In this document: positions 9,975 to 64,000 of the stretch, in pieces
Position numbering within the stretch: the first letter of the stretch is position 1
How the letters are laid out: each line of letters begins with the position of its first letter
From: a virus
IMG/VR virus record: IMGVR_UViG_3300045988_163304
Coordinates: 64,001-128,000 of that record
Length of the DNA stretch: 64,000 bases
Strand: one strand, 5' to 3'
Position numbers and translations under genes: made by a program
The notes under the pieces: generated by a model
Told to the model about the DNA's origin: nothing
Database searches by the model: none
Seen by the model: the letters and a program-made list of their open reading frames with translations, nothing else

Positions 9975-9988
9975 TCTATTTACAACAA

Positions 9989-10035: not shown

Positions 10036-10046
10036 GGAGGTTATAA

Positions 10047-12787: not shown

Positions 12788-12814
12788 TATAATATAGAAA
12801 ATGGAGGATAATAA

Positions 12815-13360: not shown

Positions 13361-13392
13361 ATCGTTTATTTTGTAGTTTATAGCCATTTGAT

Positions 13393-40500: not shown

Positions 40501-41040
40501 ATAATTATCTTGATATTCTTTTTTATCAATTTCTTTATTAATAGCATATTCACAATTTTCGTCTATGCCATCAGGAGTTAATCGATTATTATCTTTTAAT
40601 ACATCGCTTTTTTTTATATAATACTAAATAGTATCATCATAACTCTCGCTCTTTTTAACTTCACAATATTCTCCATAAGGGCGAGTTCTTAAAGCTGTAG
40701 TATAATCATCATTTGTATTATAAATACTATAATTCTTTTTCTAAATATCTTGACCAATTTTATAAGTATATAATATTGGACATTCATTAGTAAATACATT
40801 TTTTTGATGCCAAACATCTTGAATATCAACTGATTTATAAGGACTATATCTACGCTCTCCATAGTTAATTAAAACATATCGCGTATTATAAACTCCATCG
40901 CCGAGAGTGTCTGCTTTATTAGATTTATCCTAATGAATTTTACTAATGGCTTCTTCCATAGCAGCTCGATTAGGATAAGTTTTATCAAAAACTAAAGAAA
41001 TTCTAGAATTAGTTTTTATATTACCATAAAAAGAACCCAT
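37567..41040 (-). CDS. large (~1150 aa) baseplate or tail structural protein; about 20 TAGs, including a tandem TAG-TAG at 37624-37629
   Basis: The 37801, 38503 and 40021 track ORFs and the start at 41040 share one frame. Explicit translation across 38100-38520 and 39000-39120 needs only TAG. Confidence 0.5.
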
Positions 41041-44005: not shown

Positions 44006-44022
44006 TGATACATACCCGCCTT

Positions 44023-47000
44023 TATCTCTCTTGTATAGCCTTTATCTAATTCAAGGATAAAATTATTCCAAGCATCTTTTACTTGCTATACTAATTTTTT
44101 CATTTGAGCGTCTTTTGAAGAAGCATCTGATTTATAATACTCATAATACTATTTAGAATTGGAGTCAAGAAAACCAGTAAAAATCTAGAGATATTCAGTA
44201 TATTTTGATTCATAATAATCTTTTTTTGATTTATATAATGTTTGTTTATTTGTATACATTGTTTCTAAGATTTCAGCCTATTTTACTGCTGCTTCACAGG
44301 CTTTAATATCTTTACTTAAAACTAAATCAATATACCAATAAAAAATACCAATAGAAGTAATAGCGGGGTAAGTATCATCAGGTTTATTTGAAATTGTAGG
44401 TTTATTTGTAAATAGCTCCAATAGTAAAGGATTAATACGATATTTATTAAATAACTAACTATTGCACCAATAATACAAAATAGCAATATTAGAAATTCCT
44501 TTCAACAAACTTAAATACTAAAATTTTCTCCAAGTAATTGAATCCGTTTCATTAAGAGCAGTAATTTTATAATTTGCAGGATTATTAATTTTTACATTTT
44601 TATTAAAAATATTTCTATTATTTTTATTATAAGCTAAATATAAATTATATGCCGTTCCTGATGCATCTAATAATTTATTATAAGCAGAGATAATATTATC
44701 AATTGTGCCCCGTTCAGTTAAAGCATTATCTCCTCCAATAGTATTATTTAAAAATGTCAAACGAGAACCAGTATTTAATCCTATGGTTTTTTCTATCATT
44801 TGTCGCTCAGGATAAATAATTTTATTATCTTTCATAAAAGTATTAAAAGACTCACTATTATTTGCCGTAAGAGTAATATTATCTTGATATTTATTATTAA
44901 TGTATAAATTAATTGTACCCCCAAATAATTCTGCCTGTTTAGGATTGTTTAATTCTAAAAATTGACTAATAAAATTATAAGTATTATTTTTTTTATCCAA
45001 ATCCGCTACTGGCAAATTATTATAATATTCTATAAATGTTTTTGCCAAAGCATCTCTATCTTTCATATAATATTGCACTGAATCATCAAAAACAGTAGCT
45101 ATTTTATAATTAGAATTTTCATAAATATAGTATTTTTTCTATTTAAAAAATTCATCATTCTCTATAACATTATTAACTTTAATAAATTCATCAGTCAGGC
45201 CTTCATTAATTAATATAGATTGATAGGACTAAATTAAAGTATTATAAGCATTTATAATATTATTTAATCCATTACCCTGCTCTGATAAATCAAATAATGA
45301 TTCAAAACATTTATCTCCATAACTATTTGAATTAATATAAGAAATCTAATCGGATAAAACATCTAATACTTTACGATAACCATCAGATACATAAGGCTTA
45401 CAAGTATTATCAATTAAATTAATTAAAGCTTTAATTTTAGCAGCCCGCATCGAATTTTCTTCAACAGTATATACTGGTTCATCAAATTCAATACTATTAT
45501 ACATACTATTATCAATAATTTCTTCAGAATTTGATAATTCAAAAATGAGGCCTCGACTTGTCTCTGCTTTGATATTTTCTTGAATAGTAGAAGTTAAAAT
45601 AGCTAAATATGATTCTGATTCTTGTATACCCTATGGCTAATCTATATATTTAAATCTATTTAACAATCTATATCTCATTAGAAAAACCTAGGTCCAAGCT
45701 TTTGCCTATGTCTCATATGATAAATAATTATTAATAGCTAATAAACCATAATGGTTTTTCGCACTTTCTTCAGCGCACCACTATTTTATATTTAATGTTT
45801 GATTCAAATAATTTTTATAAATACTATTTATCATAAAATTAGACCATTTTAAATCTAAAGAGGCTTGATAAATACTTTCAATTTTATCAGCATATAAAAT
45901 TAGAGTTTTAATAGTTTCACTATCACTATCTGACAAATTATTTGTTTTTCCTTCGCTAATAAACTTATCAGCTAATGATTGATAAGCTGAAAAGGCGTTA
46001 GTAGCATAATCTCCACCAACAGCATACTAAAATAAATCTTTTACTGTTTTAAATCCGCTGTTATTTAAATGAATATTTCCAATTTTTTCCATTGTACTTG
46101 CAACCTATTCATAAGGATATAAAGCTTGATTAGTTTGTTGATTAATACCAATATATTGAATTAACGCCTCAGAGTCTGGCTCTCCTTCTTTTATCCCAAA
46201 TAAAAATCGTAAATTATTATGAGCTGTTTTTATTTTCCAATAATTTTCCAAACAACTAAAAATATCACTAGAAATTGAAGTTAAAAATAGATTATCTAAT
46301 TCAGTATCATTTTCTCCATCAATTACCATATCTTGATAAGTAGCTATAGATACAGATAATTGAGTTAAATTATTCCAACTTTCTAAATAATATTTTAATT
46401 GTTTCAATCGAGCTTGAGCTTCAGTAGAACTAGTATCAGAAGTTCCATCTATTTGTTGATAATGATTTTTAATTGAATTTAAAATTTTCTCAATAGAAAT
46501 TGAAGACTCTAAATTAGTTAAAAACTTTTCATCATCTTTATATTTATTATAGTTTGTAGACTAAAAATCATCTAATATTAAAGCAATATGCTACATAATT
46601 AAATTATATAACCATAAACCTGCTTTATACTAATAAATATTAGTATTATATTCATCAGCTTTAGTTTCTAATCTATTAATCTAAAGTACATAATTTTGTA
46701 CTAACATTAAAGCATTTTCAACAACCCCATTGCGCTAATTATATAATTTTTTTAATAAAGTTGTAATTTTAGCTAATTTATCATTAATACCAATTTTAGA
46801 AGTTTTTTGAATTAAATCAACTAAATCATTTTCTTCATTTTCAACTAAATTTAATTCATTATACATTGTTTTATTTATCTATAATTTACGAATTAAATCT
46901 TCTACTTTTTGTTTATCTGCCATTTTTTGTTCTTCTGTTGTGCCTTTAGCCCAAAGATCAGCTATATTATTACGCTAAGTTATTTGAGCCTAATTTGTAT

Positions 47001-50000
47001 TTAAAATTTCATTTAATAATTTTCTATCCTAATAATTTATTTTTAAACCTAAATTTGACTAATAATTATTAGTATTCTCATAAGGTAAATTATTATTTTC
47101 AGTTAATCCCTATAAAAGAGTATCATATATACGAGTTAAAGTTAAATAACGCTAAAACCCGCAATCAGCTTCTGCAATAATTTCATAATTACGATATAAA
47201 TTTTTCAAGAAATCTGATAATTTTAAATAAGTTTCTTTCGCTCCTTGAACATACTAATCGTTTTCTTCAGTAAAATAATCAAAAATTTCTAACTAAAAAG
47301 TTACTTCTCCAATTAATCCAGTGCCTATTTTTATTACTTTTGGAGAACCTAAATTAGAAAAATATTGTTCTTCCCCTTCATTCATTTGGACCTAATTCTC
47401 ATACCTTAAATAAAAATCTGGAATCTAAGAAGCTTTTACAATAGCTTCAGCTTGATTATTCTAATCAATAGTCCAGTCTGTATGTTTATAATTTGGTAAA
47501 GAATCATAATCTTCTTTATTCACCCATTTGATAGCTGTTTCTAAATAATTAATATCATCAATTAATTTATCATTATTAGAAATACTTAAGAAATAAGAAT
47601 CTTTACTTAACTATTCTTTTAATGGATTTATTTTAGCATCATATTCTTTTCTAAGATTGTTTTTTTGGTCCTCATCTGTTGAAAGGTCTAATTTTTTCTA
47701 TAATTCATTTTCTAATGTTTTAATAGTATTAGTTAATTCTGGATTTCCTTTAGGATAAACAAATACCTCATCAATAGGTAAATAAACATTATTTCTTTTA
47801 ACATAAATATTTAAATTATTATCTAAATATTTTTTTTCACCATTAATTATTACATAAAAGAAATTATTAGTTTCATCTTGTTTAAAATCAGAAATTTTTT
47901 CATATCTATATTTATCATCAATATAAAATGAAGTATCATACTCATTAACAACAGACTCCCAATAGCAATCATAATACTATCCAGTTTTTACTCCAAAAAT
48001 ATTAGTTCGCTACGTTGGCATCCAAGTCTAAAATTTTGAAGAATATTCATACATCTAGAAAATACAAAATTCATCATTGATATCATAATAATGCTATACT
48101 TGAGGTGTAAGCTCATCAATAGGATAAGGAACTCCAAAAGGTGTAACAGAGTAAAGTAAATACTAACTTCCAATAACTTCATCATAGTCTTTTTTGGTAT
48201 AAGTCCCATCAGCCAAAGGTAAAACCTTATTAGTTACTTGTCCATTTGTCACAGCCCAAGGAATCCCATCAGGATACTTTTTAGTTAATTTATTCCATCC
48301 TTCTAATGTGACCTATTCGTAAGGAACGGCATAGATAGGAATTAATTCACGAACTCTTATTTTTAATTGTTCTAAATTTAAAATTTTTAATTTCTCTTTC
48401 TAATAATTATAAAAAGTAGTTATAATATGTTGTAGAATATCACCAGGTTCAAAATTCTTTTTAGAAAGTTCTTGATATAATAAATCTAAAGAAGAACTAT
48501 AAGTTTCATTATTTAATAAAATTCTATCATTAATTGACTATATAGCTTTTATTATTCTATTCTAATCTTCTGGCAATAATGTTATTTTATTCTTTTCAGA
48601 AACTAAAGTATTTAGCTCTGTTAGCACTGGATCAATTCCTACAAATTGATTACTTAAAATAGTTTTTAATTTAACTGCTGTAATAGCGTCAAAATTAGAA
48701 TATCTTACTCCTTGATACTAACATTCTAAGATACCTACTGGATGAGTTTCTGGAGAATTTGGAATACGAATCTATTCTATTAAAGAATTACTATTATTAT
48801 AATTATAAGAGCCAGTAATACCAATAACTATTTCTTCTTCAGTTTTTTCAGAACGATCTCCATAAGTAAGAAAAATACTTGAACCAGGTTTCATATCTTG
48901 AACAGAGAATGAACTTATATTAGATTCAAATTTTAAAATAATATCTCCAATTGGCTCATAATCATTTAAATAATAACTTCTCCACATAGAAATATATTTA
49001 CTAATTAAATCAGTCTATATAAAACCATATTGTAATAAATTTGAATAAGAAAAATCAGCAACTTCTACGCATTGAGCTGTAAATGAATGTAACATTCGCC
49101 CTAAACTATCTACTGGAGACAATGAAACATTCATAATGCGCACAATATAGTTCCCCTCTGGCCCCGATCTAAATAATTTTGGTTTCCCATTATTTAGCCA
49201 ATCTAAAACTTCCGTTTTAAAATCACGTTCTTTATGGATATTATTTTCGATTAAATCACAAGGATTCTCTAAAACTCGCTCCATTTCAGAAAAAAATTCA
49301 GCACTATTCTTTTTATTAGAGGTTTGAGTACAAGAACGAATATATTCATTTACTTCTCTATCATAAAATAATAATTCATCATCCATCTAATAAGATAATA
49401 AACCACTAATAGGAAATTCTTTATATCCAACATTTCCATTTCTAAAAATAAATGGATATTTATTACCAATAGTATTTGTTTTCTATTCTAAAATAGTAGT
49501 TTTAAATGAAGAAATTTTTGGATTAAATTTAATCTTTAAAATTCTTTCTCCATCATATAAAAATATATCTTCAAAATCAACTGATATTGGTTCACTCTCA
49601 ATTCGTGAAGAATAAATGCCAAATAAATTATATTGAATAACTCCATAAATATATTTTACACCCTATTTTACAGTATAATCATTATATTTAATTAATGAAG
49701 GACGCATATTTTCCAGTTTAAATTTTTTAATTTCTAACCAAGATCTATAATCATCTTCTTCACTCGCACGAACTAATATATATTGACCAAAATAAGCCTC
49801 TTCTTGTTTATCGACTTGATACTCAGTAATTATATCATATCCTAAAAGAGAAAAATATTCTTTAATTAAAGATGTTGACATATTTACTGTTGAAATAATA
49901 TTTTGGCATAAATTAATAAATTCTTTATTAGTAACTTTTTCATCTATTAATGTATTATCATTTTTAATAGCATCCTATAAATATTTTAAGTAAGCAATAA

Positions 50001-51300
50001 CTCTTGTCTAAATTATAGCATCTAATTTATTAAAATCATTAAATTCTACTGTTAAATGCTCAATTGTTATATACAAAAAATTCATTAAATTATTATAATG
50101 ATTTTTTTCTCCATCAACAGTTCCTATCCCTTCTACAAAACTCTTTAAAAAACTTCCTAAATTAATAATATAATCTCTTGATGTTTCTATCAAAGAACTT
50201 AAAAGACCTGTTGGAATACCAGTTAATTCATTTAATAAATATAAATTATTTTTAATATGACTCTAACAATTTTTCAACGCTAAAGAATTTTCGGAGGCTG
50301 ACAATAAATTTACCCAATGAGCAAAATTATTACTTTCATAAAATGTTTTTATTTTAAGACATAAATTTTTATTATATTTATAATATGTATTAGTTTTTGT
50401 CATTGAAAGAATAATATTTTCTTCTCTTAAAACTCTTTCTTTGCCTTTAAATCCAACTTTAATACAACCATTATTAGGTTCAGCAGTTGTAGTAATAGTT
50501 AAATCTTTTCCCGGAGCTAATAAAGTTTCTGTTGTTACTCTATAACTTGGGCTAGAAGCAACAAATCCATTTAATGTAGTTACTGTGTATATTAATTTAT
50601 AAATTTCATTTGTTTTAATAAAACTACTTAAAGTAATAGTGTCGGTAGATATTCCATATTCAATATCATTAGCATTATTATGTAATAATTCTCTTGTGGT
50701 ATAATATAATTCATCATCTTCTGTATAAAATGAAAAATTATAAGAATATACCTTTTCACTCTAATCTAAATCATCAGATAGCTAATATACGCCATGTAAT
50801 TCATTATTAAAAACATTTACACTATCAATAGTATAATTTTGAATATAAACCACTGGATTTTGAATACATTTAATAATTCCAACAGTAGAATAATATCCTA
50901 TTAATTTTTTAAAAGTAGTAATTGTCTAAATATTTCCTTCACTATCTTTATAAGTATTAGTAGAGTCAACATATTTTGATATATAAGCAATCTAAATCTT
51001 ATAATACTAACCTTCATTTAATAATTTTCCATATTTAGAAGGAATAGTAAATGTAACTGTAGATTTTTCTATATCAAAATTAGTAGATTCAATAGGATCA
51101 AATAAAAAAGTATTTGTAGATGCCGTTCTTAAGCGCAAACTAAATCCAACAAAATCTCCATTATTAACAGCTACACTGGCAGTAAAAGGAATAACTAACT
51201 AAATATCTTTTAAAACTTTAGTTTCACCTGTTATTGTATAAGTTTTACAAAAAGCTGGTAACGTTCCAGCTATTTGCGGAGGATATAATCTTTCAGGCAT
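44023..51300 (-). CDS. giant (~2425 aa) Tal-like tail-tip protein; dozens of TAGs
   Basis: Seven track ORFs from 44518 to 50008 and the start codon at 51298-51300 share one frame. RBS AAAGGAGAG; the 3' end translated explicitly to TAA at 44023. Confidence 0.45.
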
Positions 51301-51322: not shown

Positions 51323-54241
51323 TTAAGATTTTGCTTTTTCTAAAACTTCAACGCGTTTCTATAAATTAGTAATAGTTATTTGTAAGTTAGTAATAGTTTT
51401 TTGTAAATCAGTAATAGTTGTTTGTAATTTTCTATCTTTATTTTGTAAATCTTTTATCTAAGAATTATAACTATCTAAAGACACATAAGTTTTACCAAGT
51501 TTAGGAATACCATTTGTAAAATATACTGGCTAAATCTCTGAGCCTATAGTATATTCAATTCCTGTATTATCAATTAACTATTGAGATGTTTTAGAAGTGT
51601 CAGACTGAGCAATTCTAGCAATACCAGAATCGGTTAATTCAAATATAATATTATCTTTAGAAATTCCATATAATCCATAAGTTGTATATGTATAATCTTT
51701 TCCATCTATTTTTACAGTTTTTAAAAAGGTCCCCATTAAAATCCCTGAGCGCTAAGTATCATTTAATTGACCAACAGTAGTAGATAACAATTTTAAATTT
51801 TCATTGTTAAAAAATATATCTTTACCTTTTATATCATTCCACATAGCAATAGGATAATTATTATTAATCATAATTATTGGCTATATCCAAAATAACTCAT
51901 TATTATTCTAGATATTTGTACCCTAAACATATAAATTTGTCTAAGCCATATTATTAGAAGTGGAATAAATAGTAGGTGGGATAATCATATTATTATCTTT
52001 ATTAAAATTCCAAAATTTAGCTCCATCACCTTTTAATGTCCACTCAACATTTAAAACAACTTCTAAAGAATTTTTATTATTTAATTTATATAATTTATAA
52101 GGAGTTTTTTCATATACCGGTTTTTTCCCAGTTATATCATAAGTAACAATAGAACACCCATCGGCACAAACGTATTTATCATTAAAAGAACACGGCAAAG
52201 TAATATAACTTCTTATAGTATTCATATTATAAGTACCTTCAGCGACAATCACTAATTTAGACATTAAAGTCGTATCACTGCTATTTAAATTTTCTTTGAA
52301 TGTAATTTCACCTTTATCAGTTAATTCAACTTTTGTTTCGCTATTTAATGAATTATAATACCATTTATAAGATAAATTTAATTTATTAAGAGCTTCCCAA
52401 GTATATCCATAAAGATTTGCTTTAATTAAATAAACATTATCTTTTAAAGGACGCACCATTTTTACTTCTTTTTCTTCTAATCCATTTTTTTTATACAAAT
52501 TTAACTATAATACACAATCGGCACCAGTAGATCCACTATTACCAAATAATAAATCAATACTATTTGAATACGTTTGATTATTAATTTCAACAGAACATTT
52601 AATAGTATTATTTTTATATAATGGATTATAGAGAGAAGCTATCTTAAATGGAATATAATATAAACCAGATTCTATTTTATTATAAATAGAAGCATTATCC
52701 CCTTCTTCAAGGATATGTTCAAAGGTATACCATGAGTCTTTTGCTATTCCTGGTTCGACTGGTAAAATCATACTATTAGTAGCTGGAATTGAATAAGTTA
52801 ATTTTATTCCTTTTGCTAAAGTTGTGTATTCTTTACTCGAATCTCGACTATTAAATTCAACAGCAATATTATGTATTTTTTCTCCATTTGAACGGGCTAA
52901 TAACTAATTATCTTGCCCATAAATATAAAATGTATTATCATTATTCTATGGAATCATATTTAAAGTATCTAATAAACCTACATTATCAATATAAGACCCA
53001 TTATCAAAAATACAAGGTTCTGAATGTGTTGTTAAAATCTCTCCAGTTAAAGGATCTTTTACCTATATTTGAACTCTTAATGGGCATTCTTTAATTTGAT
53101 CTCCTGTAGGCAAAGCATAAAAAAATTCATCATTTTTATTTTTTAACAATTCCATTGGTTGATAAATTCCATTTTTTATTGTTCCAGTTGCTTTCCATCC
53201 TCTACCATAAATACCATGATTATCCATATAATTTTTTAAATAAATAAATAAATAAATAGTAGGGTTAGTATAAGTAACAACTCGTTCTGTTTGACGATTA
53301 ATTATACGAATACCTAATGTTTTAATTCGCTCGTTTTCAGAATTAGAACCATAATATTTTAAACTTCCAATAGAATATAAATAAGCTCCTAAATTATCAG
53401 TATCATAAGAAGATAAATTTTCTTTATAATATCCCGCAATGATTTTTAAATTTCTAAATTTAATTTCAAAATCATCTGGATTATCTATTTTATCACTATC
53501 ATCTTTTTTAAATTTTCCATCTTGCCAAATATCTACTTTTATATCAGCAATAATTTTATTTTTAATATCTATATCAAAATATTGAGATACATATCCACCA
53601 GTTTTATATGGATTCATTAATAACATTTCATTATTTGAAATTAGCTAAGAAATTGTTCGTGTTTCTAACTTTTCTGTAGTCTAATCTTTATAAATTATAC
53701 TAATTTTTAATCCATATTTCCCAGAATTAAGATTCTGACTAGCCACATATAAATCCGCCGCGATATGATAAGAAAATCGTAATACAGTATAACCTATAAT
53801 ACCATTTGAATTTCCATCAATAAAACTTTGATTTGGAAGAATATTTTTCAAAGTTGTAGTTTGAGTAGAAGTGGGGTGTAAAATAAATTCATTAGGCGAA
53901 TCAATATAAGCCTATGATGCAAAAAAAGTCTTTGAATCATCTTTTCCTTCTGTTTTATAATTATTTATAACTATACCAGTAATAAGTTTTTTTGCTGTAA
54001 AGTCTCCTTGAGGTATTAATACATAAACTTCATCATCAATATTATAAACTTTTTCTTCATTATTAGAAAAAACAGCTAGTAATGCTCCTTTATAATCAAC
54101 AATATATTTATGAATACCATTTTCTAATAAAACTTCTTTTATTACACCAACTATCGTCTAGTCAAATGGTAAATTCTATAATCGAGCAGATACAATTGTG
54201 TCTACTGATCGGAATATTTTTTCATTTAATTCATTAGACAT
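51323..54241 (-). CDS. large (~970 aa) Dit-like distal tail protein with a C-terminal coiled coil; many TAGs
   Basis: The 51941, 52505 and 53063 ORFs share a frame with the start at 54241. RBS AAAGGAGAG; a 3x21-bp tandem repeat at 51366-51432 encodes the coiled coil. Confidence 0.45.
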
Positions 54242-54320
54242 AATTCGCTCTCCTTTTTCTCATATTCTAATAATTTTTAAGAAAAAATCTTATTTTATTA
54301 TTTATATTTGACCAATAAAA

Positions 54321-54352
54321 AATGGCGAGGTAATTAAACCTCGCCATTTAAA
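54321..54352 (-). terminator. hairpin terminator immediately after the TMP stop
   Basis: aatggcgagg / cctcgccatt plus a T-run on the minus strand. Confidence 0.55.
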
Positions 54353-57300
54353 TTAAATAGTCTTTCGACTAGCATATTGACTTGCTTCGTTCTCCATCAT
54401 TTCAAATGCTTCCATAATTTCATTACTATCAGTCACATTCGGGAAATCAGCATTAATAGAAATTTGTTGCATAAACTCTTGTGCAATTCTATCAATACCA
54501 AGAGAAGAAGGAGTTAAATTAGATAAATAATTTACAATAGTCTAAACATTTAACCCTATACTTTGTAAAATACTTGAAACATCTAAACTATCAATTAATG
54601 CAGTATCAATTGTTAATTCATTATTCTGCATCTATTCATCTATCTATTTACTCATATCTAATCTATCAAATATATCATAAGTTAAGGGGAAAGATTGTTC
54701 TGTAACATAATCAGTATTACTAAAACTTCTAGAATTATGTTGCGTGCTAATAATATTATTATCTGTCGTGGTTAACTGAGAATTTGTCTTTTGATTATAT
54801 TTACTATAATCAATATTATCCATACCAGATAATAATGCAACCATTTTATTAAGACTCGCTACAAGAGCCTCATTTCTATCAATAGCACTATTAATTTTTT
54901 TAGTATAAATATCTTCCCATCTACCAGCCGCTTCAATAACATCTTTAAAGGAATTGGTAGCGTTTTTAACTATGCCATCCATATCAGCTAATGCTTTATT
55001 AGAATCACCAGTAATCTTAATAGACCAACCAGAAGCTTCGCTAGCAAAATCGCCTTTAATACCAGCGGTTTGATTTATTTCATCCTATTTTTTACTTAAA
55101 TCATCTAATAATTTCATTGAATCATTTAATACAGTATCATGATTATCCCAGAAACGTTTAAACATTTCATCTAATGATTCATATCCACCCTTAATTGCTA
55201 AATTAGTTTTTTCAAACGTGTCTTTAATATTATCGGTATTAACCTAATAATATGAAGTAAATTTCGCTGTTGCGTCTTGGCTATTTCCAAATAACTTTTT
55301 GTATTCCCCTTCAAGATATTGCATCTTGTTTAAATACCAATCATTTAAACTAGCAATTTGCGCTTCGGCCTCTTCTTTTGTTAATTCGCCATCAGCTAAA
55401 CCTAATTCTATTTCTTTAAGTTTTTCTTTATAATCAGCCTATACTTGAAGAATATTACTTTCAAGAGTTTTTAGGTATTCTTCATTTGCTTTTTGATAAG
55501 CATTTAATTTATCTTCATATTCCTATTCAGCTTGAGCAATTTTATCTTCATCCGCGCTATATACATATCCCCAATTACCATTATTATCGCGAGTTAAACG
55601 AACAGTTTCATTAGAATTTTGAACATCTTCTAATTTCTATCTTGCTAATTCTAATTCATATTTAGATTGCAAAATTTTCAAATCATATTCACTAATTTGA
55701 GAACCATCTTTTAATTTTTTATTTAACTCATCCTGTAATTTATTCAATGCTTGTTTATGCGCGATAATATCAGTATCTTCTATAGAACCTTCAATCTAAC
55801 GTCTTAATTTATTTAATTCATAAGTTTTATCAGTATCACTTAAATATTGTTCATTAATTTCATTAGCCTATTCAATAGCTTCTTGTAATGCATCAATGGT
55901 GCCTTGAATAGGAGCAATACCTTTTTCAAATTCTTGGATAATGTTATCCATTTCTTCATCAAAGATATCTTTTGCTCTCTATAGAGCTTCTTGCCAACTA
56001 TCTAAGAAACTTTCTTCTACACCATTAATTTTATCATCAATTTCTTGTAAGGTTTTATCCCATTTCTTAATAGCTTGTTCATCGCCGTTAGCTGCTACTT
56101 TATCACGCTCAGCTTGAGCATCAGCGCGCATCTATTTCAATGCTTCTAATTCTTTTTTAGTCCCAGCTAAATTATTAATACTGTTATTCATTAATGAACG
56201 ATTTAAATTGCGAATTACTATTTTAGACTGTTCTCCCAACTACATTCCTAGTAATGATGTAATATCTTTAACACCTTCTAAAATATTTTGATAATGATCA
56301 AATAATTCAATTTGATGCTCGATATCTTCACTGAATTGATTGAAACTATCTAATACTTTTTCTTGAATTGTATTACGCATTTCAAGTAATTCTTGATTAC
56401 TAGATAATAATTCTGAACGCCAGTCTCTTAATTGCTCAATTTCTTTAGCAGTAAATCCTTTAGCTTTTAAATCAGCTTCAGACATTCCCTCTAATTCTTC
56501 TATTGAATCAATACCATGATTATTTAATAATTCCATTAATCCTTTTTGATAAGTAGTAATTTTATCAAGAGTATTCTAAGTTTTATCACCAATTAAAACT
56601 ATAGCCTCAGCCGCTGAATAAGCTTCATCTTCAATTTTACTTAATAAATAATCAAGATATTCTAATTCATCATCTTTAACAGCAATTTTAATTTCAATTT
56701 TATATTGAGTTTTTTCAAAAATTACATCAGCTAATTCAGTCTTTAAATCATATAATTTTTCTAATTGCTCTTGGCGCAAATTATTAGTTTCTTCATACTA
56801 TTCTAAAGCTTTAATAAAATCATCATAAGCATCTTCAGCGGCATCATCAGCATCTTCATTTTTACCAATAGACGAATTATATTTATCAATCTGGCGCTTC
56901 ATAATTTCATCATAATTAGTAATAGCACCAGTTTCATCAAATTCAGCGCCATAAGATGCAATTAAAGCTCTATCTTCATCCCAATATTTATTAATTTCAT
57001 CAAGATATTGATTCTATAAATCAATCATTTCATCATATTTTTCAATTTCTTGATCCATTAATTCTAATTTAGAAGTGCCAAACGCCCGCTCTTTAGCTTT
57101 CGCTAAATGCTCCATTACCTCTTCTAAATCTTCAATTTTTTGCTTAATTACATGATAACGCTCAATTTCATCTTTATATTCTTTTGGGGGAGGAGGAGTA
57201 TATGAACTTCCACCACCGCCTCCATTACCACCATCGCCACCATTTCCTCCAATGGTTCCAGAAGATTTTGTGCCTCCAGTGACTTCACCACCCATTTCTA

Positions 57301-60300
57301 AGCCACCACCAGTTACAGCCTTAACTGCTGCGGGGTATTCAATTACGTCTTCTCCATCTAAAGATTTAATAAAAACTCCGCCTGGAACATGATGGGTACC
57401 ATCAACGGTATCAGTTTCATTAGTGGCTACTAATGTATCAAAATGTTTTTTAGTCACTTGAGGTTCGACAGGATTTAACTCTAAATTAAATCCCATTTTA
57501 GCGAATTCTTTTTGTGCTTGTTCAGATGTCCATCCACTAGCTGCAATTATTTTATTACAAGCATCAATAAATCCAGCATCATTAACTTCTGCTCCGACTT
57601 CAATCGGATTGTTTTCTATGTAATTAGAAATATAATCAAAAGCATTTTGAACGTCTGATTCAACTGTTCCGGCCGCAGCACCTGCAGATTCTTCTAATTG
57701 GGCCATTGCTGAACGGGCTTTAGTATTATTAACATCTAAAACAATTTGACGCTATGCTTCCACTCTAAATTGTTGAACAGCTTTAGTATCGCCCTTCATC
57801 ATTTTAGGAATTAGTGGACCAGATTTTCTAATAAAATCTTTATTATGAGCAAGCATCTAATCAAATGTATCTTGACTTACTCCAGCTAAAGAAGCAAAAC
57901 TGTCAGAATTAGCATCTAAAAAATCCCCGAAAGATTCATATTCGGCTTCTGTTAAATCTTTATTTTTTTCTAATTTTTCAATATATTTATTTAATTCTTT
58001 ACTATTATCATTCCAAGCATCCTAAATATCTTTAATAGTACCAATATTAAGACCAGTTAATTTTCGTAATTCATTTACAGCTTCAGCGTCTCCTTCAACT
58101 GCTTTCTTAATTAAATCATAATGTTCAATAATATTATCACTATCACTAATCCATTCTTCGAAACCTTCTTTAGTCATGTCAAACATAGAAGCATATTCTT
58201 CAGAATTCTATTTTAACATATCTGACATAGCTTGAGCTTTTTCTTTTAACTAATCTTGATAATTATTATAAGCCGCTTGATAATCTTCTGTATTATCAAA
58301 AGAATCTTCGTTTGGAGTTCCCTGTTGATTTATTTGTTCAAATTCATTTACAGTTGATTGATTTTTATCCCAAGTTTCTTTTGCCTTAGAAGCATTTTCC
58401 CAAGTTGTTTTACTATCAGCTTCTATTCCTACATAATCATCAATATTAGCCACAGTATCTTCAGAGGCTAATTTATTTTCTAGCCAAGCTCGTAACTCTG
58501 AAACAGAAATATTTTTAGTCTCTTTCTAATCTTCATCTGTATATACTTCAATAGTTTTATCATTCTATAATTTAGATAAATTACCCCAAAAATTATTATC
58601 TTTATAAGTATATCCTCTCTCTTTTAAAAACTCTTGAATATTTTCATTTGAATTATTTAAAACATTAAAAGCAGTAGCAGACTAGTCGGTATAATCTGTA
58701 GCATTAGAATTACGGACTGCATCTTCAGCCATTTTATAAGCAATATCAGAGACATATTCATCACTAACTCCTGCCTCTTTTAAATCTTCTAAAATCCCTT
58801 CAGAAACCATTTTATTATACATATCATTAGTTTCTGTGTCAGCAATTCGTTGTGCCTATACAGTCAATTCTTTAATAGCATCTTGTAATTCAGTATTATT
58901 ATCAATTAAATCAATAACACTCTAATCTAAACCTAAATCTTTTAATGTATCAGAATCAATTTCTAAGTTTGGATTACGTAATTTAGCATTAATAATAGTG
59001 TCTAGATCTTTAGAAGTAATCTATTCTACATCATTATCATAATGGGTCTATCCGTGTTTAGTATAATCAGAAACAATTTCTTTTTTGCTCTAATCATATT
59101 CATATTTATCTTTAAATTTCTATTGAGCAGCTTTTGCTGATAATAAATTAGAACGTTCTTCATCCATTGAAGTACGCATAGTCTCCGCGCCAGTGTCTGT
59201 AATATACTTACGCCCCTGAGCATCAATATCCCAGTCCTATCCTTTTATTAAACCATATTTTTCAATTAAATCATCAACTTCATCATTTAACTCATTAACA
59301 GCATCTCGCCATTCTATAGTTCCATAAGTGAGATTATCAATATTTTTACGTTTATCATTTAACCCAGATAAAGTACTATTTAATGTATTTAATCTACTAT
59401 TTACATCATCTAAAGCAGTTTTAGTTTCTTCTAAATTTTTATTATTCTATTCAGCGTTTTCAGCTGCTGCTCCAGTAGCATTGTCATATATCGCCCAAGC
59501 CGCTACCAAAGCTCCTAAAGCTACAATTAAAGGCCAAATAGTAGCTAAAACTGGAACAATATTTAACCATAGACCTTTTAGAGCTGTAGAAAAAGCATTA
59601 GTTGTTACCGCCGCCTTTCCTGCTACAATAGCTTCAGCTTGCAATGCTGTAGTTTCAGTAACTACTCCTCCCGCTGCTAAAACTGCTTGGATAGCATTCT
59701 TTTTAAAAGCATCATTTAATTTTTTACTAGCTAATATATTATCTATTTTCTTTTTTTGATTCTGGGTTAATACTATTGTATTAGCCCCTATTGCTACATT
59801 TTCTAAAGAAAGTGTAAGAAATTGTTTCTAGGACTATTGTTGTAAAAAAGCATTAGCAGTACCTAATCCTCGTAAAACACTAGACACCCCAGGAACAATC
59901 ATAGAAATACTAAATAAAACAGATGTAAATTTTTCCCATCCAGAAATATCAGGATCAGATAATGTTTGCATCATAGAATTAAATGATTGTAATGCCATTG
60001 CAGCAGAACCACAAGCAGAAGCCAATGATATTATACTCTAAGTGAAAGGTATTTTATGAATTGGTTTAAAATTAATAACTGCTTGATTGAGTCCTTCTTG
60101 TGCTTCTTTTGCTTCTTTAGTAGCCTATCCCCACTATTTTAATGCTTTACTATGCGCCTAAATATCACCTTTAGCCTATTCCATTGATTTACTTGTTGAA
60201 CGACCCATTTGTTCTAAAGCATTAGCCGCATTTTTTCCTTCAACAGTAGTATTTTTTAGAACTTCTGCTAACTGCTTAAAAGCCTAACTTACTTCTTTTG

Positions 60301-62650
60301 GCTTTCCTCCATCTAATGCACTTTCAATAGCTTCTAAAGCATTTTGAAAATCTTTTGAAGATTTTGTGACTTCATCTACTGGGCCAATAAGCATATCAAT
60401 AGAAGTTCGAACCGTTTCAAAATCAATTTCACCATTTAATTTAGTATACTAAGTCCCTAATTTTTTAAGTCCTTCAATTGTTAAAGAGTATAAATCATTT
60501 CCTGATAATAAAGTTTCATTTGTTTCATGCCCAACTTCAATAAAAGTTTTATAAGTATTTGTTAATTTTTCAACTGTTTGTGCTAATTGAGACGCTGCCT
60601 GTTCCTGAATATCTAATTTATCATTCTAGAAAAAAGCTAAATCATTTCTAGCAGCGACTAAATCTGCCTAATTATTTTCAGATGGATTATTACGATATAA
60701 CTACTAAGCTTTATCTTTATTAGCTTTTAACTTCTGTAAATAACTAGTACCATAATCATAAATTTGATTAGGAGCATTTAAATCAATAGGATTAGTATCT
60801 TTATTTAATTGTTCTCGTAATTTAATTAATTTTACTGTTTCCTACTATTGTTTTTCAATAAATTGAATTTCATTTTCATAATATCTTTTTTCACTAATAG
60901 ATAAATTTTCAGATACGGTTGCTAATTTATTTTTTACTCCTAATAATTCCTAAGAATTTTTTAATTCCTATTCTTGAGCTGGAGTAAAATTAGTTCTTGT
61001 CTCTAACTATAATTTAATATTATCAGAAGTTTCTTTAGATATTTTAGCATAAACTTTATCTGCTCCACCTACTAAAATTTGAATATTATTTATTGCATTA
61101 TCTAAAGCTGGCTAAATTTTAGAGCTTAATGTCTAACCAATTAATGATAAAAATCCTAATAATAAAGGTTTAATTCCACCAATTTTATCAATAAAAGAAT
61201 CAACCCCATCAACCATATCAGATAAGAAATCTGTAAATTTAATAAAAAATTTATCATCAATTAAATCAGTATATAAAGATTCAAAAGAAGCTTTTAAACG
61301 TTTATTAGCAGCTTCCCAAGACTCTTCATAAATTTTCTATTGTTCAGTTAATGTTCCAGTAGCATTACGAGCAGTTTCGAGATTTTCTTTCATAAAATCC
61401 CAATTATCCATTAATGCCATTAATTGCGTATATTGACGAACACCAGCAACGGTTTGAGCCAATGCTACTTTAGCATCTTTAGAAATTAATGGATTACCTT
61501 CAGCATCAAATGAATTCCACTTTTCACCTAAATCACTAAGGATATCATCCATCTCTCGCAATCCGCCATCTGCTGTTTTAATAGAAACACCAACAGTTTC
61601 AAGAGCTTGAGAATATTTGCCTAATGTAGTACCATCATCAAGAGTTTTACCTAATTCTAAATCTTGAATACGAGCAAATAATGTTTTGAATGCAGTACCA
61701 ACTACATCAGCAGATTGACGAGTCGTTGCGGTTACAGTCGCTAAAGCTGAAGTAGCATATTCATAACTTAAACCTACTGTATTAGACACAGCTGCAAATT
61801 TTTCTAATCCAGCCGCAATTTCATCTGTGCTGGAAGCTGTTGCTGCACCTAATGCAGTCATAACATCAGCGTAATATTCTAATGATTGTGAGCCATCATA
61901 GAAGTTATTCCAAACAGCAGTCAATTGGTCTGATATTTTATCAGCACTTTCACCAGCGGCATTAGCCATTTTAATCGTAACAGCAGTTCTATCTTCTACT
62001 TCTTTATCTGATAAACCCTGTTGATAGTAAATCAAAGAAGCATCAGTATAATTTAATGTAGAAGTGCTTAATGCCTTTGCTGCTTTATTTGCTCTATCAG
62101 CAAATTTATCCATATAGTCAATATTATGACCAGTAACAATTCGGATATCATTTAATGAACTATTTAAATTCTAAGCGTAATGATAAGCTCCTTGCAAAGC
62201 CCCCATTACACCATGAATCATACTTGAAGAAATTTGCCATTTAACTGTATTTTTAACAGTAGTTAAAAAATCTTGTAAACGAGCATTTAATGTAATCATT
62301 GGCTAATCAGCCGCCGCTATTGATTGAGCTAATTTTATAAATGCTTGTTGTCCAGTTGTTCCCGCTTGAAGTAAACTGGTAGATAATTCAGTCACATTAG
62401 TTTTTGATTTAGCTAAACTAGCATTTAATTTACTTAAATCATAATTACCAGTTTTCTAATTATATGCTTCATTTAAATGAATAGCTAGCTCTTTAGCCGC
62501 AGTAGAAGCTGCTTTCATTTGACTGGGATCAATACCTAAATCAGTACTATATGCTACTTTAGTTAATAACTACTGCAATTCCTAAATCTGCTATTTCGCT
62601 TGAGTAGTATTCGCAGTAAAATCTAATGCAACATTTAATTGTTTTGCCAT
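54353..62650 (-). CDS. tail tape measure protein, ~2765 aa, dozens of in-frame TAGs
   Basis: All nine track ORFs here sit in frame 2 (54644 ... 61337). TP901-type TMP core (61337-62113 fragment), TM helices at 59447-59644 and a Gly-rich linker. RBS AAAGGAG; TAA at 54353. Confidence 0.75.
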
Positions 62651-62689
62651 AAACGGGACTCCTTTCTCTCATAATATAAACAAAAAAAA

Positions 62690-62728
62690 TGGGTGTGAGA
62701 AATAATCTTCTCACACCCATACACTTGA
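62690..62728 (-). terminator. hairpin plus T-run between the 62766-63290 gene and the TMP start (possible attenuator)
   Basis: gggtgtgagaa / ttctcacaccc with T8 on the minus strand. Confidence 0.45.
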
Positions 62729-62765: not shown

Positions 62766-63290
62766 TTATCCCAACTTGGTCAAAACATCTTTTAGCAATC
62801 CTAATGTTTCAGGATTCTGAATGTCATTAGTTAATTGTTCCATATCAAATGTTGTATCTTTATAATCCGTAGAAATAATATCTAAAATACCCGCCGCAGA
62901 ATTTTTATACTCATAAATTGAATGAATAGTTTCTGCCACCCAACTTTTAATTTGTGCATATTCTCCTGGATTAATTTCTCCAAATACCTTAGCAGAAAAA
63001 CCAGAACCTACTACTAAATCATATAATTTCTTTGGGTCTTCTTTTTGTTTATCAGTAAAACTTACATTTGTATATGCCATAATCATTTTTAAAATAGTAT
63101 GAAGATATACACGAGCAGGGTTATAATAACCGTTTTTATCAATGGAATCATTAATGATTTCTGAAATAAGATTTAACTTATCTCCAATAGGAAGATAATC
63201 TTTGACTTCAATAATCTAATCTCCCCATTCAAAGGTTGATACTTCTGTATTTTTATTTAAATTTAACTTTGAAAATGATACTTTTGCCAT
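62766..63290 (-). CDS. tail protein upstream of the TMP (assembly chaperone or tube protein); one TAG
   Basis: RBS AAAAGGAGG; 175 codons. Confidence 0.45.
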
Positions 63291-63319: not shown

Positions 63320-63348
63320 ATTATACTAAAAATTTAGTTTATTGTCAA
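63320..63348 (-). promoter_or_regulatory. perfect-consensus sigma70 promoter on the minus strand (TTGACA, 17 nt, TATAAT) driving the tail operon
   Basis: -35 at 63348-63343 and -10 at 63325-63320 read on the minus strand. Confidence 0.55.
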
Positions 63349-63352
63349 TTTT

Positions 63353-64000
63353 TATTTCGATATTTTTAAAATATTTAATAATTTATCAACAGCTTTTTCT
63401 GCCGTCTCTTCCATAGCTGCTTCAGTTTCAAATTTTGCTTTATTTAAAAACAATTTAGAAATCTTTTCTTGATATGATGCTTTATCAATTAATCCTCCAG
63501 AAATAATATCTTTTATAATTTTTAATTGCTAATAAATTGTATTATAATCATATAAATCTGCACGATTTGCTTTAATACTAGTGTTTGTAAAAGGATTATC
63601 ACCACCCTATGAAGCAATAATATTGTCATAGGCTAATGCAGTACCAAAAACATCATTTTTAATCTATTGATCATCAATCTATTTTTCTAATTCTATCTAA
63701 TGAGAAATAGCAATATCCAATGCTTCAAAAATATGGCCTTGATTAAAGAACTAATACTAACGAGGATTTTTTTTCTATTTTAATCCAGAGTTACGATTTC
63801 CATATTCTTGCATAATTGATTTTCTTACAATATATCCGTATTTTCCTAAAGAAGTAAAATAATCATTTTTTTCATTTTTCGCTGGAACATATTTATTAAA
63901 ATATTTTGTCATTAATTCGCTGTATTTTGCATTAATTGCATCATTATTCTATTTTAATAAAGTAGGATTTAATTGTAATGCCATTTTACCAAATTTCACA
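63353..64000 (-). CDS. tail protein (tube or major tail candidate), partial at the window edge; about nine TAGs
   Basis: Explicit translation gives a continuous protein ending ...AVDKLLNILKISK-TAA; the frame is open to the window edge. Confidence 0.4.

What the first reader, a model, noticed from the sequence alone, without database searches (positions are those of the whole stretch)
54353..62650. Tape measure protein of ~2765 aa implies an extremely long tail
Under TAG read-through the TMP reading frame is continuous for 8.3 kb. TMP length scales with tail length at about 0.15 nm per residue. That predicts a tail of roughly 400 nm, among the longest known.
Basis: partly seen in the sequence, partly recalled or inferred. 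Interest (0 to 1): 0.5.

Follow-up and report, generated by a model that had tools for sequence, protein, structure and literature searches.

The report
Giant TAG-recoded phage tape measure gene
This is one real 2,765-codon phage gene for the tail "ruler" protein, readable only if TAG means glutamine; it predicts a tail about 400 nm long, but many related phages have rulers as long or longer, so it is an ordinary member of a known group.

Summary
Observation confirmed. On the minus strand, 62650→54353 is one frame of 2,765 sense codons (ATG…TAA) with 59 in-frame TAG and no internal TAA or TGA.

It is a single translated gene. dN/dS against a 93%-identical relative is 0.11, and low in every 400-codon block. 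Twenty IMG/VR relatives carry the same ORF at 2,743–2,805 aa, one of them almost free of TAG. TAG stands for Gln: CAA and CAG are enriched 7–9 fold opposite TAG.

It is a tape measure protein. Pfam PF10145 scores E=3e-22, several PHROG tape-measure families match, a hydrophobic pair sits at one third of the length, proline is 1.2%, and the gene sits in an SPβ-like tail module.

Homologous rulers of cultured siphoviruses give 0.14–0.16 nm per residue (Perkons 2,439 aa/381 nm; Tsamsa 3,123 aa/440 nm; the 949 group about 3,334 aa/480–500 nm). The predicted tail is therefore about 390–430 nm.

This is not new. TAG-recoded gut phages with rulers of 3,149–3,209 aa were published in 2023. Of the 150 nearest cluster representatives, 130 are 2,434–3,506 aa (median 2,913).

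Most notable finding: length varies by only 0.6% (CV) across relatives that are down to 24% identical.

Verdict: new member of a known kind; modest interest. No virion has been imaged.

The parts
54353..62650 (-). Tape measure protein gene: 2,765 sense codons, ATG start, TAA stop, 59 in-frame TAG read as Gln
   Evidence: frame and stops. (PF10145, PHROG tape-measure families). (dN/dS 0.11 over the whole length). (orthologues of 2,743-2,805 aa).
61502..62089 (-). PhageMin_Tail (PF10145) core, aa 188-383; the most conserved part and poor in TAG
   Evidence: E=2.8e-22, 80 bits against a cut-off of 33.2; invariant columns concentrate between aa 114 and 492. TAG is 15% of Gln codons in aa 161-437, against 29% elsewhere.
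59864..59929 (-). First hydrophobic, membrane-helix-like segment, aa 908-929
   Evidence: Kyte-Doolittle 19-mer mean 1.8; the same relative position (about 0.33 of the length) in most of the cultured and metagenomic homologues examined.
59474..59560 (-). Second hydrophobic, membrane-helix-like segment, aa 1031-1059
   Evidence: 19-mer mean 2.41, the strongest in the protein.
57185..57328 (-). Gly-rich linker ending in PPPP, aa 1775-1822, at 0.65 of the length, followed by the conserved motif KEYKDEIERYH
   Evidence: the linker sits at relative position 0.65 in the window's clade, the L014-L016 clade and phAss-1; modelled as disordered, at low confidence; a short DNA repeat at 57210-57244.
62659..62665 (-). 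Shine-Dalgarno-like AAAGGAG, 8 nt upstream of the ATG
   Evidence: read directly from the sequence.
62679..62720 (-). Terminator-like hairpin (14-bp stem plus a T-run) between the upstream 174-aa gene and the tape measure gene
54310..54349 (-). Terminator-like hairpin (12-bp stem plus a T-run) starting 4 nt after the TAA stop
62766..63290 (-). 174-aa gene directly upstream (phrog_30570; YomO-like). Its position suggests a tail assembly chaperone
   Evidence: phrog_30570, E=1.6e-12; the same PHROG lies upstream of the tape measure gene in Enterococcus phage VRE9_3; the near-identical L005 orthologue is 48% identical to a protein with a weak Pfam YomO hit. The chaperone role is inferred from position only.
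63320..63348 (-). Perfect sigma-70 consensus match (TTGACA-17-TATAAT) upstream of the 174-aa gene
   Evidence: 12 of 12 positions. This is a consensus match only; function is not shown.
63352..64000 (-). 3' part of the next upstream gene (363 aa in relative L005), cut by the window end; 9 TAG in the visible part
51323..54241 (-). 972-aa gene directly downstream (18 TAG). It occupies the distal-tail/baseplate position but has no family match
   Evidence: Assigned by position only.

Best explanation
The region is one gene for the tail tape measure protein of a large SPβ/Tsamsa/949/phAss-like phage that most likely has a long non-contractile tail. The phage is predicted to be 130-200 kb with low G+C, and its host is probably a Firmicute; the gut origin is inferred from its relatives, since the window's own source is not known. 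Late genes of this phage are written in genetic code 15, where TAG means Gln. Shown here: the frame is intact, it is translated along its whole length, TAG stands for Gln, the protein belongs to the PF10145 tape measure family, and its length is held almost constant among relatives. Inferred from the established ruler mechanism (Katsura 1987, phage lambda): a few copies of the mostly helical protein extend from the tail-tip complex, tail tube protein polymerises around them, and polymerisation stops at the protein's end. Using 0.14-0.16 nm per residue measured on homologous rulers, the tail should be about 390-430 nm. The hydrophobic pair at one third of the length probably acts in membrane penetration during DNA injection, by analogy with other tape measure proteins; this was not tested. 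With 59 TAG codons, full-length product needs about 99% or better decoding per TAG, since 0.99^59=0.55 and 0.95^59=0.05. The ruler, and so tail assembly, can therefore only appear once TAG is almost fully reassigned in the infected cell. A phage suppressor tRNA encoded outside this window is the presumed agent.
For: Frame and stops.
Coding constraint: dN/dS is 0.11 against L005 and 0.13 against L004, and 0.03-0.23 in every 400-codon block. Differences by codon position are 98/56/278.
Single gene: 20 IMG/VR loci carry the same ORF at 2,743-2,805 aa with 1 to 87 TAG. L021 has a standard-code ORF of 2,731 codons. MT835936 has about 2,940-2,953 aa with one TAG near the end.
TAG=Gln: CAA is 24.5% of the codons opposite TAG (6.8-fold enrichment) and CAG is enriched 8.9-fold. 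One-step neighbours that code other residues are not enriched. Database proteins P0001 and P0121 carry Q at these positions. The phAss-1 paper reports tRNA-Sup(CTA) typed as Gln (PMC10607447).
Family: PF10145 at E=2.8e-22; PHROG tape measure families 4211 and 34405 at E=1e-44 and 3e-38.
Synteny: the PHROG order 31155, 6123, 4051, 2729, an unmatched gene, 30570, then the tape measure gene is the same as in Enterococcus phage VRE9_3. A relative's upstream genes hit the Pfam families YonB, YomW, YomV, YomU_Tube and YomO, and the L005 proteins are 41-74% identical to them.
Architecture: proline 1.2%, 2 Cys, hydrophobic pair at 0.33/0.37 of the length, as in Perkons, WRP3, FADO and phAss-1. The AF2 model of a 57%-identical proxy for aa 1-1200 is 80% helix.
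Ruler signature: length CV is 0.6% at identities down to 24%. About 90 indel events involving about 570 residues net to zero against L010, while the downstream gene ranges 926-1,393 aa.
Calibration: Perkons 2,439 aa and 380.6±16 nm; Tsamsa 3,123 aa and 440 nm; WRP3 3,334 aa, with 949-group tails of 480-500 nm.
Against: No virion has been seen, so the tail length is a prediction.
The calibrating phages share only 24-28% identity with this protein, and only over the N-terminal 400-500 aa. The 949-group ratio combines the WRP3 protein length with tail lengths measured on the sister phages L47 and 949.
No suppressor tRNA lies in the 64-kb window, nor within 10 kb of the gene in 15 relatives.
No frameshifted chaperone pair was recognisable upstream.
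About 150 aa around the Gly-rich linker may not be helical (low confidence).
The AF2 evidence comes from a proxy at pLDDT 63, because the window protein itself could not be submitted.
One table lists the relative Enterococcus phage EF1 as 'Myoviridae' (PMC6435515). However, none of the proteins scanned upstream of the tape measure gene in L005 matched a sheath family, and none of the genes called there in L028 carries one. The ruler logic applies to contractile tails as well.
Confidence: 0.88

Rival explanations
1. The 8.3-kb frame is two or more genes, or a fusion whose parts act separately (for example a ruler plus a cargo or enzymatic protein), so only part of the length measures the tail.
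For: Family matches cover only the N-terminal 520 aa or so. A Gly-rich/PPPP linker at aa 1775-1822 looks like a domain boundary or processing site. Tsamsa's tape measure protein runs as 280- and 100-kDa bands (PMC3903500). The 5,002-aa tape measure protein of P23-45 carries an N-terminal RNA polymerase (abstract of bioRxiv 10.1101/2022.12.01.518664).
Against: Relatives that use TAG little or not at all keep one uninterrupted ORF. Cultured homologues are annotated as single CDS of 2,439-3,334 aa. Terminator-like hairpins flank the gene, and none of comparable strength lies inside it on the coding strand. Total length, not domain length, is what is conserved (CV 0.6%). In homologues with the same architecture, tail length scales with the whole protein length. 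No enzymatic domain was found by Pfam or by PDB sequence search.
Confidence: 0.07
2. The TAG codons are real stops. The region would then be a decayed pseudogene or a string of about 60 small ORFs, and the long frame an artefact of low-G+C composition.
For: In the standard code the longest piece is 278 codons. GenBank annotates the homologous region of phAss-1 as many small hypothetical proteins. No suppressor tRNA was found in the window.
Against: There are no TAA or TGA in 2,765 codons, while the other frames carry 108-460. dN/dS is 0.11 downstream of every TAG. TAG alternates with CAA/CAG among relatives. Full-length collinear homology exists with proteins free of TAG. The whole late region of the window behaves the same way.
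Confidence: 0.01
3. The protein is the ruler of a contractile (myovirus-type) tail, not a siphovirus tail.
For: The related Enterococcus phage EF1 is listed as Myoviridae in one comparative table (PMC6435515). The region upstream of 64000 lies outside the window, so a sheath gene cannot be excluded for this genome itself.
Against: The 10 kb upstream in relatives shows no sheath match, and it holds a YomU_Tube-type tube gene in SPβ order. Every homologue with published micrographs found here (Perkons, Tsamsa, L47/949) is a siphovirus. The phAss-1 authors also infer siphovirus morphology.
Confidence: 0.04

Closest known systems
Tape measure proteins of phAss-1 and the proposed Phassvirus group (Babkin et al. 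2023, PMC10607447; GenBank OQ749652, filed under 'Caudoviricetes code 15 clade')
   Same: Human-gut phage of about 136 kb with late genes recoded TAG to Gln. Its giant tape measure gene is riddled with TAG: 3,150 aa and 110 TAG in my reading, 3,149 aa in the paper. It has a PF10145 N-terminal core, a hydrophobic segment at about 0.3 of the length and a Gly-rich linker at 0.65. DNA polymerase III alpha is one of the four signature proteins used for phylogeny in that paper, and the window encodes a 1,323-aa protein that looks like Pol III alpha by eye; this was not tested.
   Different: Only 26% identity overall and 34% in the N-terminal domain. G+C is 29% against 38%. It is 385 aa shorter. So it is not a member of that genus but a separate lineage of the wider group.
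Tape measure proteins of cultured giant siphoviruses of Firmicutes: Psychrobacillus phage Perkons (2,439 aa), Bacillus phage Tsamsa (3,123 aa), Lactococcus 949 group such as WRP3 (3,334 aa), Bacillus phage FADO (3,080 aa), Enterococcus phage VRE9_3 (2,673 aa)
   Same: Homologous N-terminal PF10145 region. Same overall plan in most of them: very low proline, almost no cysteine, and a hydrophobic pair at 0.30-0.35 of the length (no hydrophobic segment reached the threshold in VRE9_3). All are single genes of 7-10 kb. VRE9_3 is collinear with the window protein at the N-terminus, the C-terminal third and the extreme C-terminus, and shares the upstream gene order. Measured tails of 381-500 nm fit 0.14-0.16 nm per residue.
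   Different: These phages use the standard code. Identity is 24-28% and mostly confined to the first 500 aa or so. Perkons, WRP3 and FADO have an integrase gene immediately upstream of the tape measure gene; the window does not.
Bacillus subtilis phage SPβ tail module (YomU tube … YomO … YomI tape measure)
   Same: Relatives of the window phage carry genes that hit the Pfam families YonB, YomW, YomV, YomU_Tube and YomO, in that order, just upstream of the tape measure gene.
   Different: From my own knowledge, not checked here: SPβ YomI is about 2,285 aa and ends in cell-wall-lytic domains. No lytic domain was detected in the window protein.
Thermus phages P23-45 and P74-26
   Same: Ruler proteins of extreme length set extreme tail length: 5,002 aa and about 800 nm (abstract seen); nearly 1 um for P74-26 (PMC10034513).
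   Different: Unrelated lineage with a Gram-negative thermophile host. Their ruler is nearly twice as long and carries an N-terminal RNA polymerase. These phages, not this one, hold the record.

Membership tests
Phage tail tape measure protein (Pfam PF10145 PhageMin_Tail / TP901-type) | Significant match to the family profile | tested here: met
   PF10145 at 80 bits (cut-off 33.2), E=2.8e-22, aa 188-383. Nine of the ten PHROG families matched are annotated as tape measure protein; best E=1e-44.
Phage tail tape measure protein (Pfam PF10145 PhageMin_Tail / TP901-type) | Gene lies in the tail module, after the tube and chaperone genes and before the distal tail genes | tested here: met
   Same PHROG order as Enterococcus phage VRE9_3. 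A YomU_Tube-type gene and a YomO-like gene lie upstream in relatives, and the window's 174-aa upstream gene is the same family. The downstream 868-aa protein hits the tail-protein family phrog_1887.
Phage tail tape measure protein (Pfam PF10145 PhageMin_Tail / TP901-type) | Extended, predominantly alpha-helical protein with few helix breakers | tested here: inconclusive
   Proline is 1.2% and there are 2 Cys. The AF2 model of a 57%-identical proxy for aa 1-1200 is 80% helix, but at pLDDT 62.8. Window segment aa 1634-1878 was modelled at pLDDT 53.7. The window protein itself could not be submitted because of its TAG codons.
Phage tail tape measure protein (Pfam PF10145 PhageMin_Tail / TP901-type) | Hydrophobic (membrane-helix-like) segments | tested here: met
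   aa 908-929 and aa 1031-1059. The same relative position is found in most cultured homologues examined and in 130 metagenomic homologues.
Phage tail tape measure protein (Pfam PF10145 PhageMin_Tail / TP901-type) | Protein length determines tail length (ruler function) | not testable with these tools
   Indirect support only. Length CV is 0.6% across 21 orthologues at identities down to 24%, with compensating indels. Homologues scale at 0.14-0.16 nm per residue. A direct test needs microscopy and length mutants.
Phage tail tape measure protein (Pfam PF10145 PhageMin_Tail / TP901-type) | Upstream chaperone pair made by programmed -1 frameshift (G/GT type) | tested here: inconclusive
   No open alternative frame extends from the 174-aa gene; a terminator-like hairpin fills the gap. 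This feature is common among long-tailed phages but not universal.
Code-15 (TAG to Gln) recoded Caudoviricetes | In-frame TAG in conserved, constrained genes | tested here: met
   59 TAG in this gene. With TAG read as sense, the long ORFs sum to 18,180 codons instead of 7,571 and a non-overlapping gene set covers 96% of the window. dN/dS is 0.11 across the TAGs.
Code-15 (TAG to Gln) recoded Caudoviricetes | TAG aligns with Gln codons in relatives | tested here: met
   CAA is enriched 6.8-fold and CAG 8.9-fold opposite TAG. In the closest relatives, 7 of 8 and 8 of 9 positions where they have TAG and the window does not are Gln in the window.
Code-15 (TAG to Gln) recoded Caudoviricetes | Phage-encoded suppressor tRNA with anticodon CUA | tested here: not met
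   No tRNA gene in the 64-kb window or within 10 kb of the gene in 15 relatives. The window is only part of a genome predicted at 130-200 kb. phAss-1 has three such genes, while some recoded relatives have none (PMC10607447). The feature is therefore open for the genome as a whole.
Code-15 (TAG to Gln) recoded Caudoviricetes | Recoding concentrated in late (structural) genes | tested here: met
   The five genes from 41399 to 62650, together with the 1,157-aa gene at 37567-41040 and the cut gene at 63352-63984, carry 15-43 TAG per 1,000 codons. The replication-type genes carry few: the Pol III alpha-like and NrdD-like genes 0-1.3 and the RecJ-like and helicase-like genes 7.5-8.6 (gene identities by eye).
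Proposed genus Phassvirus | High nucleotide or protein identity to phAss-1 (80-86% nucleotide identity among its members) | tested here: not met
   megablast of window 40000-64000 against 50,697 phage records found nothing. Tape measure identity to phAss-1 is 26%. The window phage is related at family level at most.

The most novel reading that the evidence does not exclude
The ruler's length is under unusually tight stabilising selection. It stays at 2,770±16 aa (about 415 nm) across lineages that have diverged to 24% identity and exchanged hundreds of residues by compensating indels. The TAG load of the same gene meanwhile drifts between 1 and 87. If real, this clade needs a specific tail length, for example one matched to a thick capsule, S-layer or other envelope distance of its host. 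The TAG-dense ruler, of which each tail needs only a few copies and which nucleates tail assembly, could also act as the rate-limiting gate that couples tail assembly to completion of the code switch. Neither idea was tested here.
Probability: 0.2. Interest if true: 0.55.

Novelty: new member of a known kind. Interest (0 to 1): 0.28.

Why it matters
The case shows concretely why recoded phage genomes must be translated with code 15. In the standard code this 8.3-kb gene breaks into about 60 fragments, as happened in the GenBank annotation of the related phAss-1.

It adds a low-G+C lineage, with about 20 relatives in IMG/VR, to the known group of Firmicute phages with very long predicted tails of 400-500 nm.

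The set of orthologues has near-identical length but widely differing sequence and TAG content. That makes it ready-made material for two studies: how ruler length is maintained in evolution, and how efficient TAG reassignment must be. With 59 TAG, at least about 99% decoding per codon is needed for half of the ribosomes to finish.

It does not change what is known about tape measure proteins or about stop-codon recoding.

Tried and rejected
- crAss-like reading (giant virion proteins of a podovirus): considered at first because of the TAG recoding and several ORFs over 2,400 aa. Dropped once the PF10145 and PHROG tape-measure hits and the SPβ-like synteny appeared.
- megablast of window 40000-64000 against the phage collection: no match.
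- The search for homologous proteins with the full 2,765-aa query: failed internally. The two halves were searched separately. The C-terminal half gave only 5 hits, probably because low-complexity words swamp the candidate filter.
A 57%-identical proxy and one TAG-free window segment were used instead.
- Local Pfam on the proteins upstream of the gene in L005: no hits. The Yom/Yon families seen in the precomputed annotations appear not to be in the local copy, so the link was made by BLASTP.
- PDB sequence search: only a spurious Gly-linker match for the tape measure protein and nothing significant for the tube candidate.
- Internal repeats: none by self-BLASTP. Only trivial DNA repeats in the Gly-rich linker.
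- Rfam on the window at gathering thresholds: nothing.
- Frameshift chaperone upstream: not found.
- PHROGs and Pfam on most neighbouring tail genes: no matches.
- Electron-microscopy data for the closest cultured relatives (Enterococcus EF1/VRE9/H1): none found.
- The distant relatives phAss-1 and MT835936 could not show which residue TAG stands for. The closer IMG/VR relatives settled it.

Full report
**Observation**

Window 54353-62650 is 8,298 nt. Read on the minus strand in frame 0, it holds 59 TAG, no TGA and one TAA, which is the terminal stop at 54355-54353. The other five frames carry 137-505 stops. The frame opens with ATG at 62650, preceded by AAAGGAG 8 nt upstream.

The whole window behaves the same way. 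With TAG read as sense, the long ORFs sum to 18,180 codons instead of 7,571, and a non-overlapping gene set covers 96% of the 64 kb. No tRNA gene lies in the window.

**Is it one translated gene?**

Four lines of evidence say yes.

- Coding constraint. Against the relatives L005 and L004 (93% and 92% amino-acid identity, no indels), Nei-Gojobori dN/dS is 0.11 and 0.13 overall. It is 0.03-0.23 in every 400-codon block. Differences fall 98/56/278 on codon positions 1/2/3. The frame is therefore under purifying selection downstream of every TAG.
- Conserved ORF. A scan of IMG/VR returned 21 loci. In 20 of them the orthologous ORF is intact under TAG-sense reading, at 2,743-2,805 aa. All but one end in TAA. 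In-frame TAG counts range from 1 to 87.
- Relatives almost free of TAG. L021 has a standard-code ORF of 2,731 codons, with its only TAG at residue 2,724 of 2,743. The GenBank scaffold MT835936 has a 2,953-aa ORF whose only TAG lies 13 codons before the end.
- Gene boundaries. The two strongest terminator-like hairpins on the coding strand flank the gene exactly, at 62720-62689 and 54349-54320.

**What TAG encodes**

Among the window and its closer relatives, the codon most often aligned opposite TAG (other than TAG itself) is CAA. It makes up 24.5% of such codons against a 3.6% background, a 6.8-fold enrichment. CAG is enriched 8.9-fold. The one-step mutational neighbours that encode other residues (AAG, TGG, TTG, TCG, TAT, TAC) are not enriched. 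CAA is two mutational steps from TAG, so this is not mere mutational adjacency.

Public gene calls for near-identical fragments (P0001, P0121) already carry Q at these positions. For the related phage phAss-1, the authors report three tRNA-Sup(CTA) genes typed as Gln (PMC10607447).

In this gene TAG supplies 59 of 173 Gln codons. Within the window, TAG density is highest in seven late-strand genes: the five from 41399 to 62650, the 1,157-aa gene at 37567-41040 and the cut gene at 63352-63984. These carry 15-43 TAG per 1,000 codons. It is lower in the replication-type genes, at 0-1.3 in the Pol III alpha-like and NrdD-like genes and 7.5-8.6 in the RecJ-like and helicase-like genes.

**What the protein is**

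- Family matches. Pfam PF10145 (PhageMin_Tail) matches aa 188-383 at 80 bits against a cut-off of 33.2. Nine of the ten PHROG families matched are annotated 'tail length tape measure protein'. The best are phrog_4211 (E=1e-44) and phrog_34405 (E=3e-38), whose profiles are 2,625 and 2,675 positions long.
- Homologues in phage records. tblastn finds the tape measure genes of Enterococcus phages EF1 and VRE9, the Lactococcus 949 group, Bacillus FADO/PJN02-type phages, Psychrobacillus phage Perkons and the gut phage phAss-1. These genes are annotated as single CDS of 2,673 (VRE9_3), 2,439 (Perkons), 3,334 (WRP3) and 3,080 aa (FADO).
- Shared body plan. Proline is 1.0-1.7%, there are 0-3 cysteines, and a pair of strongly hydrophobic segments sits at 0.30-0.37 of the length in most of them. 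In the window protein these are aa 908-929 and 1031-1059.
- Collinearity. The window protein aligns with VRE9_3 at three places: aa 1-508, aa 1828-2441 and the last 70 residues.
- Synteny. Upstream of the gene in the close relative L005, the PHROG order is 31155, 6123, 4051, 2729, an unmatched 363-aa gene, then 30570 and the tape measure gene. This is the order in VRE9_3. A more distant relative (L028) has precomputed Pfam hits to YonB, YomW, YomV, YomU_Tube and YomO in the same order, which is the SPβ tail module. The L005 proteins are 41-74% identical to them.
- Morphology. None of the L005 proteins scanned matched a sheath family, and none of the genes called upstream in L028 carries one. 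All homologues with micrographs found here are siphoviruses. One table lists EF1 as Myoviridae without data. Non-contractile morphology is therefore likely but not certain.

**Structure**

The window protein could not be submitted to AlphaFold because of its TAG codons. A 57%-identical database protein covering aa 1-1200, with a 20-sequence alignment, was modelled as 80% helix at mean pLDDT 62.8.

The TAG-free window segment aa 1634-1878 was modelled at low confidence (pLDDT 53.7). The model shows a small mixed alpha/beta part, a disordered Gly-rich linker (aa 1775-1822, ending in PPPP) and then a long helix. This linker and the motif that follows it (KEYKDEIERYH) sit at 0.65 of the length in the window's clade, the L014-L016 clade and phAss-1.

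No enzymatic domain was detected and no internal repeat.

**Ruler signature**

Across the window and 20 orthologues, length is 2,770±16 aa, a CV of 0.6%. Identity to the window falls as low as 24%. The alignment implies about 90 indel events involving about 570 residues between the window and L010, and these net to exactly zero. At this divergence the indel counts depend on the alignment; the lengths do not.

In the same loci the gene just downstream ranges from 926 to 1,393 aa, and the gene two positions upstream from 335 to 489 aa. This pattern is expected if total length, not sequence, is the selected property.

**Tail length**

Three homologous rulers have published tail measurements.

| Phage | Ruler length | Tail length | nm per residue | Source |
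|---|---|---|---|---|
| Perkons | 2,439 aa | 380.6±16 nm | 0.156 | |
| Tsamsa | 3,123 aa | 440 nm | 0.141 | |
| 949 group (WRP3 protein; L47 and 949 tails) | 3,334 aa | 480 and 500 nm | 0.144-0.150 | |

Applied to 2,765 aa, these ratios give 390-431 nm.

It is long compared with the usual 50-200 nm for siphoviruses (PMC10034513). It is shorter than the tails of its cultured cousins and much shorter than P23-45/P74-26, at 0.8 to about 1 um.

**How common is this?**

phmmer was run with the TAG-free core (aa 161-437) against 1.84 billion cluster representatives. It found 1,578 proteins at E≤1e-30. Of the best 150, which are mutually at most 50% identical, 130 are 2,434-3,506 aa long with a median of 2,913. 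In those 130 the hydrophobic peak sits at 0.33 of the length, and in nearly all of the 150 the core lies at the same position as in the window protein. The window protein is thus slightly shorter than is typical for its family.

TAG-recoded members with rulers of 3,149-3,209 aa, interpreted as siphovirus tape measures, were published in 2023 (PMC10607447). NCBI taxonomy already has a 'Caudoviricetes code 15 clade'. The window phage is not a Phassvirus, since tape measure identity is 26% and there is no megablast match. It belongs to the wider group.

**Mechanism**

Shown:
- one constrained gene;
- TAG means Gln;
- membership of the tape measure family;
- length conservation.

Inferred from the established ruler model:
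- the protein sets the number of tube rings, and hence a tail of about 0.4 um;
- the hydrophobic pair acts at the membrane during injection.

Inferred from arithmetic: with 59 TAG, per-codon decoding of 95% would give 5% full-length chains and 99% would give 55%. The ruler can therefore only be made after near-complete reassignment of TAG. That fits the published view that recoding gates late genes.

Not resolved:
- where the suppressor tRNA is encoded, since there is none in the window or near the gene in relatives;
- whether the terminator-like hairpin just upstream lowers transcription of the ruler gene.

**Verdict**

This is a new member of a known and populous kind. Interest is modest.

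Noticed in passing
L022 about 11172-12379 (IMGVR_UViG_3300045988_078292): In one relative the tape measure gene is interrupted by a 1,208-bp insert that is absent from L010, which is 99% identical downstream of the insertion site and 93% upstream. The insert sits in the most conserved stretch of the PF10145 core. It carries a 285-aa ORF with two HNH-like motifs and a sub-threshold Rfam group I intron match (34.8 bits, E=1e-6). The flanking exons sum to 2,762 aa. This is probably a group I intron with a homing endonuclease inside a ruler gene.
   Followed up: partly
window 44002-51300 (-): A second giant ORF of 2,432 aa with 60 in-frame TAG, the densest load among the window's large genes. It lies two genes downstream of the tape measure gene and has no PHROG match. 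Its position suggests a tail-tip or central-fibre protein.
   Followed up: partly
window 26540-34702 (-): A third giant ORF of 2,720 aa with only 14 TAG, at the distal end of the tail module. It is probably a fibre or adhesin. No family search was run on it.
   Followed up: no
window 62679-62720 and 54310-54349 (-), 63320-63348 (-): The tape measure gene is bracketed by the two strongest terminator-like hairpins of the region. A perfect 12/12 sigma-70 consensus lies upstream of the preceding 174-aa gene. Read-through of the upstream hairpin might keep ruler expression low relative to the chaperone. This is speculative.
   Followed up: no
window 54353-62650 (-), aa 161-437 against the rest; same columns in 12 relatives: TAG makes up 15% of Gln codons in the conserved PF10145 core but 29% elsewhere in the gene, pooled over 13 sequences. 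TAG therefore tends to avoid the most constrained positions.
   Followed up: partly
L025, L026, L027 (Perkons, WRP3, FADO): In three cultured long-tailed relatives, a gene annotated as integrase or site-specific recombinase lies immediately upstream of the tape measure gene, inside the tail module. The window and its IMG/VR relatives have no such gene there.
   Followed up: no
window 638-12296 (+): The left arm encodes replication-type proteins with few or no TAG: a DHH/RecJ-like protein, a RecD-like helicase, a 1,323-aa Pol III alpha-like protein with 0 TAG, and an NrdD-like anaerobic ribonucleotide reductase. These identities were judged by eye from the sequences only. The pattern fits recoding concentrated in late genes.
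   Followed up: no
L001 (OQ749652, phAss-1) 5246-14713: The GenBank record of phAss-1 annotates the 3,150-aa tape measure region as many small 'hypothetical proteins', because it was deposited in the standard code.
   Followed up: yes
L028 10001-15904: One relative on a 143-kb ENA contig has a called tape measure product of only 1,967 aa. It ends in TGA near the contig end, with a gene on the opposite strand after it. Whether this is a truly shorter ruler, a TGA issue or an assembly artefact was not examined.
   Followed up: no
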